64,000 nt of DNA, taken from Acidobacteriota bacterium. GTDB lineage: Bacteria > Acidobacteriota > UBA890 > WLXD01. Within the stretch, counting starts at the first letter, position 1; each line of letters opens with the position of its first letter. The DNA lies in the NCBI GenBank assembly GCA_965205505.1, contig CBDBHB010000007.1, positions 32,001 to 96,000 on the forward strand, read 5' to 3'. Positions 16,531 through 53,113 of this stretch are shown in pieces. The translations under genes and the position numbers were made by a program. Under the pieces are notes generated by a model. It saw only the letters and a program-made list of their open reading frames with translations. It was not told where the DNA came from and ran no database searches.

Positions 16531-17205
16531 ATGACGATGTCTACGACCGTCCGCCCAGCCGTGCTCATCTTCGCGGTGGCAGCCTTAGCGTTCTCTTTGG
16601 GCTATGTGGCCTTCCCGCACTCCGAGGACGAGCATTATCCGGGCCTAGGCCTCGCGAGCGACCTCTCCGGCCTGTCACTGGACCCAGGCACTACCGCACC
16701 GGCGTTCGTCGTCAATCATCTTGATGGCTCTCCGCTGGCGTCGACCGACCTCGAGGGTAAGATCGTCGTGGTCGATTTCTGGGCGACCTGGTGCGCCCCC
16801 TGTCTGACCGAGATACCGCACTACAACAGCCTGCACGAGGAGTACGCGGATAGAGGCGTGGAAATGCTGGGCATCACCCTGCAATCCGGAAGCCAGGAGC
16901 AGGTGAGCGAGTGGATCTCCCGCCCGGTTCGCGTCGGCACGCAGGAGTTCTCGCTCGACTACCCCGTGGTGATGGGCAACGCCGACGTCGAGGCCTCGTG
17001 GGGTCCGATTTACGGGTTCCCGATGACCTATCTGGTCGACTATGAGTGGAAGATCCGCAAGAAGTGGCTGGGAGCGGTAGCCAACAAGAGCGAGCAGCTC
17101 CGGTACCTGATCGACGAGCTCATCGCTGAGCGCGCCGACGCCGGCGGCGAGGCATCGCGTGCCGGAGCAGGGGCGGATGGTGCAGTCGACCGCGACGGCG
17201 GCTGA
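16531..17205 (+). CDS. TlpA/ResA family thiol-disulfide oxidoreductase
   Basis: N-terminal TM segment, VVDFWATWCAPC, cis-Pro YGFPMT. Confidence 0.9.
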   Translation: MTMSTTVRPAVLIFAVAALAFSLGYVAFPHSEDEHYPGLGLASDLSGLSLDPGTTAPAFVVNHLDGSPLASTDLEGKIVVVDFWATWCAPCLTEIPHYNSLHEEYADRGVEMLGITLQSGSQEQVSEWISRPVRVGTQEFSLDYPVVMGNADVEASWGPIYGFPMTYLVDYEWKIRKKWLGAVANKSEQLRYLIDELIAERADAGGEASRAGAGADGAVDRDGG

Positions 17206-17229
17206 ACTGCCTCCGCTGCAGGACGCCAC

Positions 17230-18264
17230 GTGACCAGCGCGCGTTTGCTTGGCCGCGATGGGTTCCTTCAGGCGTTACACCTGGAAGACGCGGCCTCCGA
17301 ACACACGCTGCGAGCCTATCGAACCGACCTCGACCAGTTCGCCACTTTCCTATGGGCGTGGGAATCGGGAAAGGAAGCCGACTACCGTGGCAACGCGACC
17401 GGCCGGCAGACGAGCGACGGCCGCCGCGTGTCCGCAGCGGCGATCACCGCTGCTTCGGTACGCGCCTGGGCAGCCCGCATGCACGCGGCGCGACTGTCGC
17501 CGGTTACGGTCGGACGGAAGCTGGCCGCAGTCCGCTCCTTCGCCAGCTACCTGTGTCGCGAGGGAGTTCTGACCATGAATCCGGCCCGCCAGGTGCACAA
17601 CCCCAAAGTGGCTCAACGATCGCCGGCCTTCCTCACCGAGGGCGAAGTCACCAAATTGCTCGAGTTCGATGACGATTCAGCGCTCGGTGCACGCGATCGC
17701 GCCGTCCTGGAGTTGCTCTACGCGACCGGCCTGCGAGTGAGCGAGCTGGCCGGGCTCGCGGTCGAGAATGTGGACGTGGCGGGACGCTCTCTGCGCGTCG
17801 TCGGCAAGGGCGACAAGGAGCGCATCGTTCCGTTCGGCAAGCCGGCGTCAGCCGCTCTGCGCGCCTGGCTACCGATTCGCCAGCAGTGGCTCGACAACCC
17901 GCCGAAGACGGCGCGAGGATCGGCCGAAGTGCGCACCGACGCCATGGGAGCTTTGTTCTTGAGTCAACATGGACGGCGCATCGACCCTGCCGCGTTGCGG
18001 CGGGTGTTAGCGCGCCGACTCGAGGAAGCCGCCCTCACGAAACGCGTTGCCCCACACGCCTTGCGACACTCGTTTGCGACCCATTTGCTCAATGCCGGTG
18101 CCGACCTGCGGGCCATCCAAGAGCTTCTGGGCCACGCGTCGCTCGCCTCTACACAGCGGTACACGCATTTGTCGACTCGTCAGCTGCAAGACGTCCATAG
18201 GCGCTCGCACCCGCGCGCTCGGCGACGCGACCCTAACGCCCGACAGACCCGCACGGGACGCTAG
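17230..18264 (+). CDS. xerC: Tyrosine recombinase XerC-like
   Basis: LLYATGLRVSEL, GKGDKER, HALRHSFATH, LLGH...TQRY; conserved trmFO-xerC-hslVU context. Confidence 0.9.
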   Translation: MTSARLLGRDGFLQALHLEDAASEHTLRAYRTDLDQFATFLWAWESGKEADYRGNATGRQTSDGRRVSAAAITAASVRAWAARMHAARLSPVTVGRKLAAVRSFASYLCREGVLTMNPARQVHNPKVAQRSPAFLTEGEVTKLLEFDDDSALGARDRAVLELLYATGLRVSELAGLAVENVDVAGRSLRVVGKGDKERIVPFGKPASAALRAWLPIRQQWLDNPPKTARGSAEVRTDAMGALFLSQHGRRIDPAALRRVLARRLEEAALTKRVAPHALRHSFATHLLNAGADLRAIQELLGHASLASTQRYTHLSTRQLQDVHRRSHPRARRRDPNARQTRTGR

Positions 18265-18323
18265 TGCTCCTCTAGCAGGGTGCTGAAGAACTCTGCTAAC
18301 AGAGGTTTGTTGCGGGCCACTAG
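18261..18323. repeat. Stack of CTAG-delimited element-end remnants
   Basis: CTAG at 18261, 18272 and 18320; CTAGCAGGGTGCTGAAGAA end and an AACAGAGGTTTGTTGC-GGGCCACTAG fragment resembling the MITE TIR. Confidence 0.55.
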
Positions 18324-18595
18324 TGGCCTGTAACAGATGATCGTTGCGTATCGTGGTGGCGAAATGGGTCCGGATGCCAGGCGCGACGACGAGACGATGT
18401 TTGCCCATCTTCGAGGAGGAGCAACGCCGCAGACGGGCCGATTTCGCCGCCATCCTCCGGACAGATGGGCAGTTGCGGGCGATATCGGCGTTGCGCCTCG
18501 TCGACGATACCCACTGCATCGCCTTCCTCTCCGCGCCTTGAGCTTGCCCCCATCTCGTCCCAGCAATATGCAACGAACCTCTGACTCAGGCCACT
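18320..18595. mobile_element. MITE copy A (~278 bp, CTAG-bounded; right CTAG split by the IS110-family insertion)
   Basis: Left TIR CTAGTGGCCTGTAACAGATGATCGTTGCGTATCG; diverged right TIR CAATATGCAACGAACCTCTGACTCAGGCCACT; body nearly identical to 52835-53113. Confidence 0.88.
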
Positions 18596-18609
18596 TCTAT
18601 GAGAAGGCC

Positions 18610-18855
18610 TAGTTCGGTCAAGGGCAATGTGGTGGCCAGCGAAGAATCGATCTGCACGCCATGCTCCTATTCGCACTCTGGTGGACGAGGATTCAGGTCG
18701 TCCGGTGCATTCTGGGGTCCGTCCCGATTCGAGGCGCTGCAATCTAGCTGCCGAGCTCGAAGCTCGTAGTGACCTTCGCAGTCGCCCGGACCGGGCGGTC
18801 AGATCGATAACCGTTGGGTCGCGTCGCCCTACCGACCTCCTGGTTGCGGGTTAGT
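18610..18855 (-). ncRNA. Putative bridge/seek RNA of the IS1111-group element
   Basis: ~250-nt non-coding end downstream of the transposase; ATCGATCTG/CAGATCGAT closing stem, CGCCCGG/CCGGGCG hairpin, and a 10x10 internal loop whose strands match the target site. Confidence 0.75.
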
Positions 18856-19898
18856 TCATGCTGCTGAAACCTCTACAGGTGCGCGCAACGGTTCGTACTC
18901 GTCTCCACTCAGCCACAGTCGGTGCAGCACAACGGCGAGCTTACGGGCGACAGCAACTGCTGCCTTTTTGTTGCCATGAGGACCACCGCGTCCGGCCAGC
19001 TTGAGCCCCCAGCGTCTGAGCTCAGTATCGGGCCCGAAGGGGCCCAGGATGTAATGCGCCGAGCCCACCAACAGGCGTCGGAGCATTTTGTCGCCCGCCT
19101 TGGTTATTCGTAGCGCAGGGTCCTTGTCCCCCGACTGCCGTTTCTTCGGTCTCAGTCCCAGGTACGGGCCCACGGCTCTGGAGGTATTGAACCGCTCCGG
19201 CTCCTCGAGCGTCAGCACATACGCCAGTGCGGTCAGAGCTCCGACCCCGGCCACTTGCTGGAGCTGCTGTGTCTCCGGGTATCGCCCCTGGCACAGCTGC
19301 ACGATCTGACGCTCGTATTGCTGGATGTTGCCCGTCAGCATGGCGATCGTTTCAAGCACCGGCTCGAGCGCTCCCTTGAGCCGCTCCGGTATGTGCTCTG
19401 GCGCGGTGCGCGCGAACGCCGGCGTCGAGCACCTGGGAATACGACAACCGGCCGACTTGACCGCACCACGCACATGGCTCACCAACTGCGTGCAGCTCTT
19501 TACCAGAGCATCTCGGCTCCGAATCACGGCTAGATCCGCTCGCGCTTGTCTGCCTCGATGCTGCACCGTCTTAAGCAGCTTTGGGTCCATTCTGCCCACT
19601 CGTGCCAGGTGCTCGGCATCCAACCGGTCGGTCCGTGCTCGCCATAGATCAGCTTCAGCCGCCTCGGGTTAGCCACCAGCACCTCATGACCCAGTTGCTT
19701 CAACTGCTCACTCATCCACGGCGAGTGCGTTCCAACCTCCAGCACTACTCGAGCGGGCTCCTCGCACCCGAACCGCCTCGCCAGCCCCTCCGGGCTCGTC
19801 CTCACCCGCCCTTCCTCCATCACCCTGCCCTTACTGTCGAGCACGCACATACGGCTGTACCGGTCGCTTACGTCCAGTCCAATCGTTACACTTGTCAT
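18856..19898 (-). pseudogene. IS110 family transposase/recombinase, frameshifted near 19635
   Basis: ORF 19530-19898 carries IGLDVS and VVLEVG; the second frame resumes TDRLDA...GVGALTA...YLGLRPKKRQSG...ITKAGDKMLRRLL...VAVARKL. Confidence 0.9.
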
Positions 19899-19899
19899 C

Positions 19900-19983
19900 G
19901 GCCAACCTCCTTGGGCTTCGAGCCCGTTACGTTTGAAGAAACGTTTGCAGAGCCGTCAGGCTACTGCGTTCAGGAGGTTGGCC
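19900..19983 (-). promoter_or_regulatory. 12-bp inverted repeat able to sequester the transposase Shine-Dalgarno
   Basis: GGCCAACCTCCT (19900-19911) / AGGAGGTTGGCC (19972-19983); on the mRNA the 3' arm contains AGGAGG just before the ATG. Confidence 0.7.
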
Positions 19984-20070
19984 TTCTCATCTCATCTAGC
20001 AGTCACGGGGTCCACCGCGGCGACGCCGGCGGCGAGACACTGGAGCGGACCCGCAGCCGCAGACGCGCCT

Positions 20071-20079
20071 TGCTACAAT
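20071..20079 (+). promoter_or_regulatory. Putative extended -10 promoter (TGcTACAAT) for hslV, possibly leaderless
   Basis: TGCTACAAT ends 6 nt before ATG 20086; no SD visible. Confidence 0.55.
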
Positions 20080-20085
20080 CGACGC

Positions 20086-20631
20086 ATGACGAGTCGGTTC
20101 CACAGCACCACGATCTGCTGCGTGCGGCGCGGCGCTCAGGTCGCCATGGGCGGTGATGGTCAAGTGACGCTCGAGCACACGATCATGAAGGCCGGCGCCC
20201 GCAAGGTTCGCCGCATGTACAACAACATGGTATTGGCAGGCTTCGCCGGCTCGGCCGCCGACGGCCTGGCGCTGTTCACCCGCTTCGAGGGGAAGCTCGA
20301 GAGCTTCAATGGGAACCTGCGACGCGCCGCCGTAGAGCTGAGCAGCGACTGGAGAACCGAAAAGAGTCTTCGGCATCTTCAGGCACTGCTCGTCGTCGCC
20401 GACGCCGAGACATCGATCCTCTTGTCCGGTACCGGCGACGTCATCGAGCCAGATGACGGAATCCTGGTAATCGGCTCAGGTGGCTCGGTGGCCCTCGCCG
20501 CCGCCCGCGCGCTCATCGCCCACACCGAGCTCGACTCCGAGTCTGTCGTACGAGAGGCGTTGTTGATCGCGGCGAGCATCGACATCTACACGAACGAGAA
20601 AATTCGGGTCGAAGTGCTGGAGGCACGATGA
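20086..20631 (+). CDS. hslV: ATP-dependent protease subunit HslV
   Basis: HSTTICCV...GDGQVT...GFAGSAAD...IGSGG...IDIYTN. Confidence 0.96.
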
Positions 20632-20689
20632 GGACGCAGAACCGTCGCAGCGTTAAGTCAGCCGGGCCGCCGGCGAGCAGCTGGTAGAT

Positions 20690-22081
20690 ATGGCGATTTC
20701 ACTTCCCGAGAAGCTCGAACCCAACGCCGGCGAAGTCGGCGAGCTCACGCCGAGACAGATCGTGGAGCTACTCGACAGGTATGTCATCGGACAGCGAGCC
20801 GCCAAACGGGCGGTTGCCATCGCCATCCGCAATCGCTTCCGTCGATTGCGGCTGCCAGCCGATCTGGCCGACGAAGTGGCGCCCAAGAACATACTCATGA
20901 TCGGCCCGACCGGCGTCGGCAAGACCGAGATATCCAGGCGGTTGTCGCGGTTGACCGGCTCGCCATTTCTCAAAGTCGAGGCGACCAAGTTCACCGAAGT
21001 CGGTTATGTCGGTCGTGACGTCGAATCGATGGTACGAGATCTGCTCGATATAGCCATCGAGATGGGGCGACAGGAGCATGCGGTGGAGGTCGAAGCCCGG
21101 GGGCGACGGCAAGCCGAGGACCGCTTGCTCGACGTGCTGCTGCCGCCGGTACCAATCGCTCGGACGGCGGGCAAAGACACCGACGCGACGCGACGCGCCA
21201 CGCGGGAGAAAATCCGTGCCCAACTACTCGCCGGCGCCCTCGACGACCGCATGGTGGAAGTGGACGTTCCCGACAACCGCTCACCGTCGTTCCAGGTATT
21301 CACCGGCCAGGGTAGCGACACGATGGACGTTAGCCTGAAAGACATGTTGCCGGGCGTGTTCGGTGGCGGGCGTGGCGCCACGAAGCAGCGTCGCATGTCG
21401 GTACCGGAGGCGCTGGAACACCTCACTCGAGAGGCCTCCGACGCGCTCATCGACGAAGACGAAGTAATTCGCGAGGCGCTCCAGAGGGCCGAGTCGTCGG
21501 GCATCATCTTTCTAGACGAGATCGACAAGATCGCCGGGCGGGAGGGATCGCGAGGCCCGGAGGTGTCGCGCGAGGGAGTACAGCGCGACATCCTGCCGAT
21601 CGTCGAGGGCACGGTGGTGAAGACCCGCAACGGCATGATTCGCACCGATCACATACTTTTCCTTGCCGCCGGCGCGTTTCACGTCTCCAAGCCGAGCGAT
21701 CTCATCCCCGAGCTGCAGGGCCGTTTCCCACTGCGGGTGGAGCTCGACGCGCTTGGCCGCGACGATCTGGTACGCATTCTCACCGAGCCGGAGAACTCGC
21801 TGGTGCGGCAGTACTGTGCGTTGCTCGAAACCGAGGGTGTGCACGTCGAGTTCACCGATGACGCGATCGAGGCCATCGCCGAGTTAGCGGAGACGGTCAA
21901 CGAGCGCACAGAGAACATCGGCGCGCGACGACTACACACGATGATGGAGCGTGTGGTGGAGGAGTTGTCGTTCGAAGCACCCGAGCGAAGCGGCGAATCG
22001 ATAACGATCGACGCTGCCTACGTGCACGACGCGCTTGCCGATATCGTCAAGGACGAAGACTTGTCGAAGTACATCCTGTGA
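20690..22081 (+). CDS. hslU: ATP-dependent protease ATPase subunit HslU
   Basis: [53 protein letters not shown]. Confidence 0.97.
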
Positions 22082-41541: not shown

Positions 41542-41643
41542 GCAGGCCGTGGTGGAAGTGTCGCCTGCCAGTGTTGTGAGCCAGGGATCCGCCTCGCTCG
41601 CGCTCGCCACAATAGGCAACGATCATCTGTTACAGGCCACTAG
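41542..41643. repeat. Hybrid MITE remnant
   Basis: Begins GCAGGCCGTGGTGGAAGTGT (19/20 identical to 53113-53132) and ends with the MITE TIR GCAACGATCATCTGTTACAGGCCACTAG. Confidence 0.75.
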
Positions 41644-52811: not shown

Positions 52812-52838
52812 CTAGTGTCCTGTAACAGAGGGCACTAG
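52812..52838. repeat. 27-bp collapsed MITE (two TIR tips joined)
   Basis: CTAGTGTCCTGTAACAGA-GGGCACTAG, sharing its CTAG with MITE copy B. Confidence 0.65.
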
Positions 52839-53113
52839 TGACCTGTAACAGATGATCGTTGCATATCGTGGTGGCGAAATGGGTCCGGATGCCAGGCGCG
52901 ACGACGAGACGATGTTTGCCCATCGTCGAGGAGGAGCAACGCCGCAGACGGGCCGATTTCGCCGCCATCCTCCGGACAGATGGGCAGTTGCGGGCGATAT
53001 CGGCGTTGCGCCTCGTCGACGATGCCCACTGCATCGCCTTCCTCGCCGCGCCTTGATCTCACCCGCAAATCCCATCTGCGATATGCAACGATCATCTGTT
53101 ACAGGGCAACTAG
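52835..53113. mobile_element. MITE copy B (279 bp, CTAG at both ends)
   Basis: 27-bp perfect inverted repeat CCTGTAACAGATGATCGTTGCATATCG inside CTAG ends; body nearly identical to copy A; no transposase. Confidence 0.9.

What the first reader, a model, noticed from the sequence alone, without database searches (positions are those of the whole stretch)
18586..20003. RNA-guided IS1111-type element inserted precisely in a MITE terminus (hyperparasite system)
Seen: left junction ...CAGGCCA-CT|TCT-ATGAGAAGGCC; right junction GGCCTTCTCAT-CTCAT-CT|AGCAG. Removing 18596-19997 restores CAGGCCACTAG, the exact MITE end seen intact at 41633-41643. IRs 3 and 7 nt from the ends, a 2-nt core and a long downstream non-coding end are IS1111-group hallmarks. 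Established: IS110/IS1111 members use a non-coding RNA to select targets such as REPs, attC sites and transposon TIRs. Inference: this element is programmed against the TIR of a resident MITE family, giving it many safe landing sites and probably immobilising the MITE. I do not recognise this pairing as described.
Basis: partly seen in the sequence, partly recalled or inferred. Interest (0 to 1): 0.9.

Follow-up and report, generated by a model that had tools for sequence, protein, structure and literature searches.

The report
RNA-guided insertion sequence targeting MITE ends
This is a copy of a jumping gene of the IS1111 type that carries its own guide RNA and uses it to land, about 30 times in this genome, at the very end of another small mobile element; a clear natural example of a known mechanism, not a new one.

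Summary
Observation confirmed. Window 18596-19997 is a 1402-bp IS1111-group (IS110 family) element on the minus strand: 11-bp subterminal inverted repeats, 7-nt and 3-nt extensions, a 2-nt core, a 260-nt non-coding end downstream of a DEDD transposase. This copy has a 4-bp deletion; 10 of 27 full-length copies in the genome are intact. All 31 copies with that end lie at AGG(C/T)CACT|AG in one orientation; 25 abut the terminal repeat of a 278-bp MITE family.

New here: the MITE derives from IS630-type elements that insert at CTAG. The crossover falls in that flanking CTAG, one base outside an intact MITE repeat, so "immobilising the MITE" is not supported.

The non-coding end folds into a conserved loop. 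Its 5' side (AGGUCACUA) pairs with the target and its 3' side (CUAG) with the other strand. In 17 related elements these loops change with their flanks (0 of 100,000 random pairings match as well). A U-G wobble fits use of AGGCCACTAG (30 of 139 sites) and avoidance of AGGACACTAG (0 of 87).

Precedents exist: IS1111 in Coxiella QMITE2, IS4321/IS5075 in Tn21 repeats. Verdict: new member of a known kind. The RNA and transposition are inferred, not observed.

The parts
18320..18595 (+). MITE, 276 of its 278 bp. CTAG at 18320-18323 and the CT of the second CTAG at 18594-18595. Terminal repeats are CTAGTGGCCTGTAACAG... and ...CTGACTCAGGCCACT(AG). Its left end (18320-18329) is a second, unoccupied target site.
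   Evidence: 34 loci with an alignment of 250 bp or more, and 182 loci with any hit in the genome; 58-73 matches in three same-genus genomes. The right terminal repeat is 22 of 24 identical to the end of a resident IS630-family element.
18596..19997 (-). IS1111-group insertion sequence, 1402 bp, a frameshifted copy of a 1406-bp element.
18596..18609 (-). Right end on the transposase strand: 3-nt extension (AGA) plus the 11-bp subterminal inverted repeat GGCCTTCTCAT.
   Evidence: Extensions of 7 and 3 nt are the IS1111 rule stated in PMC11187229 (introduction).
18617..18622 (-). TTGACC, a possible -35 half of a promoter completed only when the ends join in a circle. CTTGAC is invariant in 7 of 7 aligned relatives.
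   Evidence: invariant columns. No complete sigma-70-like promoter was found in the linear copy. The promoter role is inferred.
18664..18670 (-). AUAGGAG, a donor-matching segment: it has the sense of the element's last 5 nt plus the core AG, with one G for A.
   Evidence: the A/G position changes together with the element end (ATAGA or ATGGA) in 17 of 17 related elements.
18672..18708 (-). Conserved stem-loop (GCACC...GAGUGC enclosing a variable hairpin) between the target loop and the donor-matching segment.
   Evidence: pairs at columns 125-135/145-161, with several compensatory changes.
18725..18793 (-). Target-binding module of the predicted guide RNA: outer stem, internal loop, inner hairpin (18752-18766).
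   Evidence: consensus fold of 7 relatives; 16 of 29 pairs have compensatory changes. (single-sequence fold gives the same shape).
18767..18775 (-). 5' side of the loop, AGGUCACUA. It pairs with T-AG-TGGCCT on the transposase-strand target (one U-G wobble; exact for the variant site AGGTCACT).
18744..18747 (-). 3' side of the loop, CUAG. It has the sense of the top strand (left flank CT plus core AG) and pairs with the bottom strand.
18856..19898 (-). Transposase gene broken in two frames (19530-19898, 122 aa; 18856-19623, 255 aa) by a 4-bp deletion next to 19633. Intact copies encode 348 aa.
   Evidence: (contigs of other runs carry 4 more bases behind 19633).
19899..19997 (-). Left end, 99 nt: 7-nt extension (19991-19997), inverted repeat (19980-19990), and a 12-bp stem that pairs the ribosome-binding site GGAGG with the inverted-repeat region.
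   Evidence: (-48.3 kcal/mol, z -5.85, 0 of 200 shuffles fold as well).
19998..19999 (+). AG, the second half of the CTAG split by the insertion.
41607..41643 (+). Solo terminal-repeat fragment of the MITE family with an unoccupied target CAGGCCACTAG (41633-41643).

Best explanation
Window 18596-19997 is one of about 31 copies of an unnamed IS1111-group insertion sequence. The group belongs to the IS110 family and has a DEDD/RuvC-like recombinase. The element most likely moves as a circle. It recombines at a 2-nt core (CT on the window's + strand, AG on the transposase strand) with a target chosen by an RNA from its own 260-nt downstream non-coding end. That RNA has an internal loop. The 5' side (AGGUCACUA) pairs with one target strand across the core and the last six bases of the MITE repeat. 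The 3' side (CUAG) pairs with the other strand across the core and the two bases beyond. A further segment (AUAGGAG) matches the element's own right end plus the core. The word specified, AGG(C/T)CA-CT-AG, is the last bases of the terminal repeat of a 278-bp IS630-derived MITE plus the CTAG into which such elements insert. The crossover therefore falls in the flanking TA, and the MITE repeat stays intact. The MITE family offers over a hundred gene-free landing sites, of which about a fifth are occupied. Shown: anatomy, copy number, site and orientation specificity, protein family, conserved RNA fold, guide/flank co-variation in relatives. Inferred: that the RNA is made and bound, the circle and its junction promoter, and current activity. 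The window's own copy cannot make transposase but keeps ends and guide, so intact copies could move it.
For: Protein: Pfam DEDD_Tnp_IS110 (64.6 bits) and Transposase_20 (62.3 bits). NCBIfam NF033542 'IS110 family RNA-guided transposase' scores 205.5 bits against a cut-off of 140. It is distantly related to the solved bridge recombinases ISCro4 and IS621. Anatomy: 11-bp subterminal repeats, 7-nt and 3-nt extensions, 99-nt upstream and 260-nt downstream non-coding ends, 348 aa, and GLRPKKRQSG fitting GL-P----SG. These are the hallmarks stated in PMC11187229. Specificity: 31 of 31 left junctions at AGG(C/T)CACT, and 27 of 29 right junctions followed directly by AG. 25 of 31 abut the MITE-family terminal repeat, 17 of them with 80 bp or more of MITE. 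Guide: a 9-nt match at non-coding position 81-89. Consensus fold of 7 relatives has 29 pairs, 16 with compensatory changes. Own-flank match runs are 9, 10, 9, 10, 10, 7, 9 nt against at most 6 for foreign flanks; 0 of 1854 derangements reach the sum, and the same holds for the 3' side. With 17 elements, 0 of 100,000 random assignments reach the observed sums for either side, and the donor segment co-varies in 17 of 17. Natural specificity test: 30 of 139 AGGCCACTAG sites are occupied, 1 of 3 AGGTCACTAG, and 0 of 87 AGGACACTAG (Fisher p 2e-7, copies not independent). This is as expected if the guide U pairs with G or A but not T. Guide positions are invariant in the 27 full copies. MITE origin: a resident IS630-family element (NF033545, 272.9 bits) has CTAG-flanked ends 22 of 24 identical to the MITE end.
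Against: No RNA, circle junction or new insertion was observed. The public runs laid were contigs only and showed no circle joint. RNA-library contigs cover the element, but that does not show transcription. Rfam has no matching family (0 matches at E up to 1). The single-sequence fold of the whole non-coding end is not exceptional (z -1.62). Only one donor-matching strand was found; my first candidate for the second (CUCGUC) turned out to be part of a conserved hairpin stem. In the 17-element set the cognate flank is the strict best for only 9 of 17 (5' side) and 4 of 17 (3' side). This is partly because some relatives share targets, and 3 or 4 relatives match weakly or with a 1-nt bulge. The 3' side pairs with only 4 nt here. 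17 of 27 full-length copies have a broken reading frame.
Confidence: 0.85

Rival explanations
1. The transposase protein alone reads the site (as classical site-specific recombinases do). The matches between the non-coding end and the target are coincidental or serve only regulation.
For: No RNA was observed here. The 3'-side match is only 4 nt. Some relatives match weakly.
Against: Loop sequences change with the flanks in 17 related elements while the stems and the protein stay conserved (0 of 100,000 random assignments). G011's element has the same ends and 63-68% identical protein, but a different flank and a correspondingly different loop. The RNA requirement has been shown experimentally for four IS1111 family members (PMC11187229, abstract and sections read).
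Confidence: 0.05
2. The conserved left flank is not a target but part of a larger composite. On this view the MITE end travels with the element, or the element inserts at random and only copies in MITEs survive selection.
For: Two loci (C7:50320-51997 and C7:280329-282006) carry a 100% identical MITE plus the same deletion variant of the element.
Against: There are 109 AGGCCACTAG sites without the element. The MITE family is abundant in three same-genus genomes in which no full copy of the element was found. The flank similarity ends at different distances: 17 long, 8 of 15-33 bp, 6 with none beyond about 10 nt. The junction is at the same nucleotide and in the same orientation in 31 of 31 copies, which selection alone would not give.
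Confidence: 0.04
3. One reading: the element acts as a hyperparasite that disables the MITE by occupying its terminal repeat.
For: The element does live almost only on MITE-family ends (25 of 31). The insertion replaces the A of the flanking TA, which some Tc1/mariner-type transposases need for efficient excision (recalled, not checked here).
Against: The crossover is outside the MITE's last base and the repeat is intact. A full MITE has two ends and usually only one is occupied: the left end of this very MITE, window 18320-18329, is free. No test of MITE mobility was possible.
Confidence: 0.15

Closest known systems
IS1111 of Coxiella burnetii and its QMITE2 target (PMC5896051; passages read)
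   Same: It is an IS1111-group element and a MITE family serves as its landing site. 20 of 21 IS1111 copies lie in QMITE2, comparable to 25 of 31 here.
   Different: IS1111 enters an internal palindrome (a GTAG REP) of QMITE2, whose direct repeats are 7-11 nt and variable. Here the site is the outermost bases of the terminal repeat plus the fixed CTAG of an IS630-type MITE, and the crossover is outside the MITE.
[quoted passage not shown]
   Same: IS1111-family members with subterminal repeats whose target is the terminal repeat of another transposable element.
   Different: Their hosts are large Tn3-family transposons on plasmids, and the site is inside the 38-bp repeat (recalled). Here the host is a chromosomal MITE family with over a hundred copies, and the site straddles repeat and flank.
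ISEc11, ISKpn4, ISPst6, ISPa11 and their seekRNAs (PMC11187229; abstract, introduction and six result sections read)
   Same: Downstream non-coding region; a top-strand match 5' of a bottom-strand match, the two overlapping at the insertion point; natural reprogramming between relatives (ISEc11 / ISXne4), just as between this element and G011's.
   Different: A different target and a different clade: no named relative was identified here. The RNA is predicted, not purified.
IS621 / ISCro4 bridge recombinases and bridge RNA (PMC11208160, passages read; PDB 8WT6 and 9T56)
   Same: DEDD recombinase; guide loops that read both strands around a 2-nt core (CT in IS621, recalled; CT on the window's + strand here).
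   Different: IS621 is IS110-group: its RNA is encoded upstream and it has two clear loops. Protein similarity is remote (E 6e-8 to 6e-9, C-terminal half only). Here only one donor-matching strand was found.

Membership tests
IS1111 group of the IS110 family | N-terminal DEDD (RuvC-like) catalytic domain | tested here: met
   PF01548 at 64.6 bits (cut-off 29), residues 6-149 of the intact protein. NF033542 at 205.5 bits (cut-off 140). The individual D/E residues were not mapped.
IS1111 group of the IS110 family | C-terminal PF02371 domain with a GL-P----S(T)G motif; protein of 330-350 aa | tested here: met
   PF02371 at 62.3 bits. GLRPKKRQSG is present in the 348-aa product. Criteria taken from PMC11187229.
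IS1111 group of the IS110 family | Subterminal inverted repeats of about 11-13 bp with extensions of 7 bp (left) and 3 bp (right) | tested here: met
   ATGAGAAGGCC / GGCCTTCTCAT, 11 bp and perfect; 7 nt and 3 nt to the ends. Criteria from PMC11187229 introduction.
IS1111 group of the IS110 family | Longer non-coding region downstream of the transposase gene | tested here: met
   260 nt downstream against 99 nt upstream.
IS1111 group of the IS110 family | One specific target, one orientation, no target duplication | tested here: met
   31 of 31 left junctions and 27 of 29 right junctions fit. Removing the element restores the uninterrupted site.
IS1111 group of the IS110 family | Guide RNA with a top-strand match 5' of a bottom-strand match, overlapping at the insertion point | tested here: met
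   AGGUCACUA (non-coding positions 81-89), then CUAG (109-112), overlapping at the core. They co-vary with the flanks in 17 relatives. This is sequence evidence only.
IS1111 group of the IS110 family | Circular intermediate with abutted ends that creates a promoter | not testable with these tools
   Only contigs were available and no circle joint was listed. An invariant TTGAC lies about 20 nt from the right end in 7 of 7 relatives.
IS1111 group of the IS110 family | The RNA is made, binds the transposase and is needed for movement | not testable with these tools
   Needs RNA sequencing or purification and a transposition assay.
Two-loop bridge RNA (IS621 type) | A separate donor-binding loop with guides for both donor strands | tested here: inconclusive
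   One donor-sense segment, AU(A/G)GAAG, co-varies with the element end in 17 of 17 relatives. No convincing partner for the other strand was found.
MITE derived from IS630-family elements | Short, many copies, terminal inverted repeats like those of an autonomous element | tested here: met
   278 bp; 34 loci with 250 bp or more aligned and 182 loci with any hit. Its end is 22 of 24 identical to the end of a resident IS630-family element with 2 copies (NF033545 at 272.9 bits). Lack of a coding gene was judged from size only.
MITE derived from IS630-family elements | Insertion at CTAG with duplication of TA | tested here: inconclusive
   All copies, and two resident IS630-type families, begin and end with CTAG. 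The one orthologous site compared (G004, without MITE) has a single CTAG there, but the G000 site also holds another small repeat, so the comparison is not clean. That IS630 duplicates TA within CTAG is recalled.

The most novel reading that the evidence does not exclude
A clade of IS1111-type elements may specialise, by re-writing one RNA loop, on the CTAG-flanked termini of IS630/Tc1-mariner-type MITEs: transposon-on-transposon parasitism as a lineage strategy. Two of the relatives examined do this with different guides. One is this element, with its crossover in the flanking TA. The other is the metagenome element L062/L063, with its crossover 7 nt inside the repeat of a roughly 175-bp CTAG-flanked MITE. 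A single U-G wobble lets this guide accept two repeat variants (C or T) while excluding a sister repeat family that differs by one base (0 of 87 sites). This would be a natural read-out of guide mismatch rules.
Probability: 0.3. Interest if true: 0.55.

Novelty: new member of a known kind. Interest (0 to 1): 0.4.

Why it matters
It gives a well-populated natural data set for how an IS1111-type guide reads its target. One genome holds 31 insertions, 109 free cognate sites and 87 free one-mismatch sites. In addition, 17 related elements have re-written loops. The data suggest which positions are read (six bases, the core, and one or two more) and that U-G wobble is tolerated while U-T is not. 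Such rules matter for bridge/seekRNA genome-editing tools. The case also shows MITE ends acting as gene-free landing pads that allow an insertion sequence to reach about 30 copies. The mechanism itself is already established, so the gain is a new, unnamed family member and a new target class, not a new principle.

Tried and rejected
Rfam: no family matched window 17000-21500 at E up to 1.

Folding the whole 265-nt end alone was not informative (z -1.62). The structure came only from the alignment of relatives.

A first candidate for a second donor guide, CUCGUC, was rejected: one search shows it is one arm of a conserved, compensating hairpin.

A sigma-70 scan of the linear copy found 0 promoters. 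The junction promoter could not be scanned because I did not type a joined sequence.

The look-up of sequencing runs and read laying: 20 of 24 listed runs from 12 studies hold part of the stretch, but the four laid are contigs. No circle junction or precise-excision joint was listed. RNA-library contigs cover the element without showing transcription. No support either way for activity.

Search for an autonomous partner with exactly the MITE's GGCC ends: 8 candidate pairs. Only one is a transposon, and it has the sister end GTGTCC. The other two that I fetched are ordinary genes lying between repeats.

Inverted partners of the target in five other relatives: none found. Flanks are short for three of them.

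11 of 25 further loci did not fit my search pattern for the non-coding end and were left out. L034, L035, L036 and L068 (27-35% identity) were not analysed beyond a look at L034 and L036, which lack the motifs.

Literature: searches found no paper describing an IS110/IS1111 element aimed at IS630-type MITE ends. Supplements are closed, so the target tables of PMC11187229 and PMC11208160 may list such a case unseen. ISfinder could not be queried.
Full report
WHAT IS THERE. The window is G000:C7:32001-96000. Between xerC (17230-18264) and hslV (start near 20087) lie two nested mobile elements. The first is a 278-bp repeat with imperfect terminal inverted repeats, at 18320-18595 plus the AG at 19998-19999. 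The second is a 1402-bp element at 18596-19997 that splits the repeat's last four bases, CT|AG. The uninterrupted word CAGGCCACTAG stands at 41633-41643. There, however, it belongs to a solo 37-bp repeat fragment and not to a whole MITE.

THE ELEMENT. The coding strand is the minus strand. In this copy the gene is in two frames, 122 and 255 aa. Whole-genome BLAST found 33 pieces, 27 of them full length.
- 10 of the 27 are 1406-1407 bp with an open 348-aa frame.
- 12 of the 27, this one included, share a 4-bp deletion next to window 19633.
- The other 5 carry other frame breaks.

The intact product matches Pfam DEDD_Tnp_IS110 and Transposase_20. It also matches NCBIfam NF033542, 'IS110 family RNA-guided transposase', at 205.5 bits against a cut-off of 140. 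It is remotely similar to the solved bridge recombinases ISCro4 and IS621. On the coding strand the element starts AGATGAG-ATGAGAAGGCC and ends GGCCTTCTCAT-AGA: an 11-bp perfect subterminal repeat with 7-nt and 3-nt extensions. It has 99 nt of non-coding sequence upstream and 260 nt downstream. The protein carries GLRPKKRQSG. These are the IS1111-family hallmarks listed by Siddiquee et al. (PMC11187229).

SITE SPECIFICITY. All 31 pieces that keep the right end abut AGGCCACT (30) or AGGTCACT (1). Of 29 that keep the left end, 27 are followed directly by AG. CT (AG on the coding strand) is the only dinucleotide shared by target and element end, so it is the core. AGGCCACTAG also occurs 109 times unoccupied, against about 13 expected. 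Of the 31 junctions:
- 17 abut 80 bp or more of the MITE family;
- 8 abut only 15-33 bp of its terminal repeat;
- 6 abut nothing BLAST recognises beyond about 10 nt.

The word that is read is therefore short.

THE HOST REPEAT. The 278-bp repeat has 34 loci with 250 bp or more aligned, and 182 loci with any hit. It gives 58-73 matches in three of four same-genus genomes and 2 in the fourth, a fragmented assembly. Its end is 22 of 24 identical to the end of a resident 1185-bp element (two copies). That element's 381-aa product is an IS630-family transposase (NF033545, 272.9 bits). That element, a second IS630-like family (4 copies) and the MITE all begin and end with CTAG. This fits the IS630 habit of inserting at CTAG and duplicating TA (recalled). 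The closest relative genome, G004, has a single CTAG and no MITE at the orthologous xerC-hslV spacer. The G000 spacer holds a further small repeat, so this empty-site comparison is not clean. On this reading the crossover CT|AG lies in the flanking TA, one base beyond the MITE's last base, and the MITE repeat is intact.

THE GUIDE. Scanning the downstream non-coding end for pairing with the target gave one outstanding hit. AGGUCACUA (non-coding positions 81-89; window 18767-18775, minus strand) pairs with T-AG-TGGCCT, with one U-G wobble. Twenty nucleotides downstream, after a hairpin, lies CUAG (window 18744-18747), which has the sense of left flank plus core. This order, a top-strand match followed by a bottom-strand match overlapping at the insertion point, is the one reported for IS1111-type seekRNAs (PMC11187229).

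Relatives supply the test. A same-order genome (G011) carries an element with 63-68% identical protein and the same ends, but different flanks. Its loop reads CGGACUCUA and GAGUAG, matching its own flanks T-AG-AGTCCG and GAGT-AG. Six more elements came from a metagenome scan and a genome scan. The seven non-coding ends align with invariant stems and variable loops. The consensus fold has 29 pairs, 16 with compensatory changes. It consists of an outer stem, an internal loop carrying the two guide sides, an inner hairpin, a second conserved stem-loop, and then a conserved AU(A/G)GAAG.

Own-flank match runs are 9, 10, 9, 10, 10, 7, 9 nt, against at most 6 for foreign flanks. For both loop sides, 0 of 1854 derangements reach the observed sum. 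A phylum-wide search (20 of 401 genomes with a match at E 1e-70 or better) added ten more distinct elements whose non-coding end fitted my pattern; 11 of 25 loci did not fit and were left out. With 17 elements, 0 of 100,000 random assignments reach the observed sums. The cognate flank is the strict best for only 9 of 17 (5' side) and 4 of 17 (3' side), because some relatives share targets and a few match weakly. AU(A/G)GAAG follows the element's own end (ATAGA or ATGGA) in 17 of 17, so it is a donor-matching segment. I found no partner for the other donor strand.

A NATURAL MISMATCH TEST. The genome holds 87 free AGGACACTAG sites, the ends of the sister repeat family, and none carries the element. 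In contrast, 30 of 139 AGGCCACTAG sites and 1 of 3 AGGTCACTAG sites are occupied (Fisher p 2e-7, copies not independent). The variable base faces the guide's U: U pairs with A, wobbles with G, and does not pair with T. The guide bases are invariant in all 27 full copies.

HISTORY AND ACTIVITY. No full copy was found in the four same-genus genomes. G004 keeps three fragments, one of them a 40-bp right-end stub still attached to CTGACTCAGGCCACT. The association is therefore older than this strain's expansion. Contigs of other public runs carry mainly the intact (4 bases longer) form. No circle or excision joint was seen, and contigs cannot show RNA ends. Activity is inferred from 98-100% identity among copies and from the 10 intact genes.

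COMPARISON AND VERDICT. The element passes every IS1111 membership feature that could be tested. RNA guidance of this family is established (PMC11187229; PMC11208160). Landing on other mobile elements has precedents: IS1111 in QMITE2 (PMC5896051) and IS4321/IS5075 in Tn21 repeats (reference title only). New here are an unnamed clade, its guide architecture, the target class (IS630-type MITE end plus CTAG), and the in-genome mismatch data. My searches found no description of this pairing, but supplements and ISfinder were out of reach.

Noticed in passing
window 19899-19983 (minus strand): The 99-nt upstream end folds into a 12-bp stem that pairs the ribosome-binding site GGAGG with the inverted-repeat region (-48.3 kcal/mol, z -5.85). 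By eye, relatives keep the pairing with changed bases. It looks like a translational lock on read-through transcripts.
   Followed up: partly
G000, 12 of 27 full-length copies, e.g. window 19633/19634: The same 4-bp deletion, with linked base differences, is shared by 12 copies at different loci. A transposase-dead subfamily seems to have spread, presumably moved by the intact copies.
   Followed up: partly
G000 genome-wide; flank just after CTAG: Occupied sites rarely have TG after CTAG (1 of 27, against 43 of 111 free sites; p 2e-4). They are enriched for T at the second flank base (11 of 27 against 12 of 111; p 7e-4). The T fits two more pairs with the 3' loop side (AG-CUAG). TG sites are mostly places where another repeat abuts. 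Unexplained.
   Followed up: partly
window 18265-18319: Between the xerC stop and the MITE lies another short CTAG-bounded repeat (…CTAG CAGGGTGCTGAAGAACTC… GCGGGCCA CTAG). Similar sequence flanks other MITE copies. CTAG-type repeats stack head to tail and share their CTAG.
   Followed up: no
L083 = G000:C9:2198353-2199737; also C9:1373288, C7:596981, C8:138219, C9:688138: There are two IS630-type families. One has 2 copies with ends CTAGTGTCCTGAGTCAG. The other has 4 copies with ends CTAGTGTAGCGTC…. No autonomous copy with the MITE's exact GGCC end was found.
   Followed up: partly
L077 1491-1530, L076 about 1470-1553, L075 (genome G004): The nearest genome has only stubs of the element. One is a 40-bp right-end stub at a MITE end. 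Another is a left-end stub followed by ACTAG.
   Followed up: partly
L062 about 1090-1254 and 2686-2694; L063: A 60%-identical relative, seen at two sites in metagenome contigs, sits 7 nt inside the terminal repeat of a roughly 175-bp CTAG-flanked MITE-like repeat (15 of 16 inverted match).
   Followed up: partly
G000:C6:11751 and C6:191362; C6:424494 and C6:512432: Pairs of copies share 40 bp of one flank but differ on the other side. Possible causes are recombination between copies, or ends of further repeat families.
   Followed up: no
L038 / L033 (G011:C1:3908161-3911885): The G011 relative's gene is split by about 2.7 kb of inserted DNA between residues about 150 and 146. The insert was not examined.
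   Followed up: no
window 17230-20631: About 1.7 kb of mobile DNA (the 278-bp MITE plus the 1402-bp element) separates xerC from hslVU. These genes are about 100 bp apart in G004. The element's gene points against them. Any effect on hslVU expression is unknown.
   Followed up: no
window 52835-53113: Another full-length member of the MITE family (91% identical). Its ends are not among the exact AGGCCACTAG sites.
   Followed up: no
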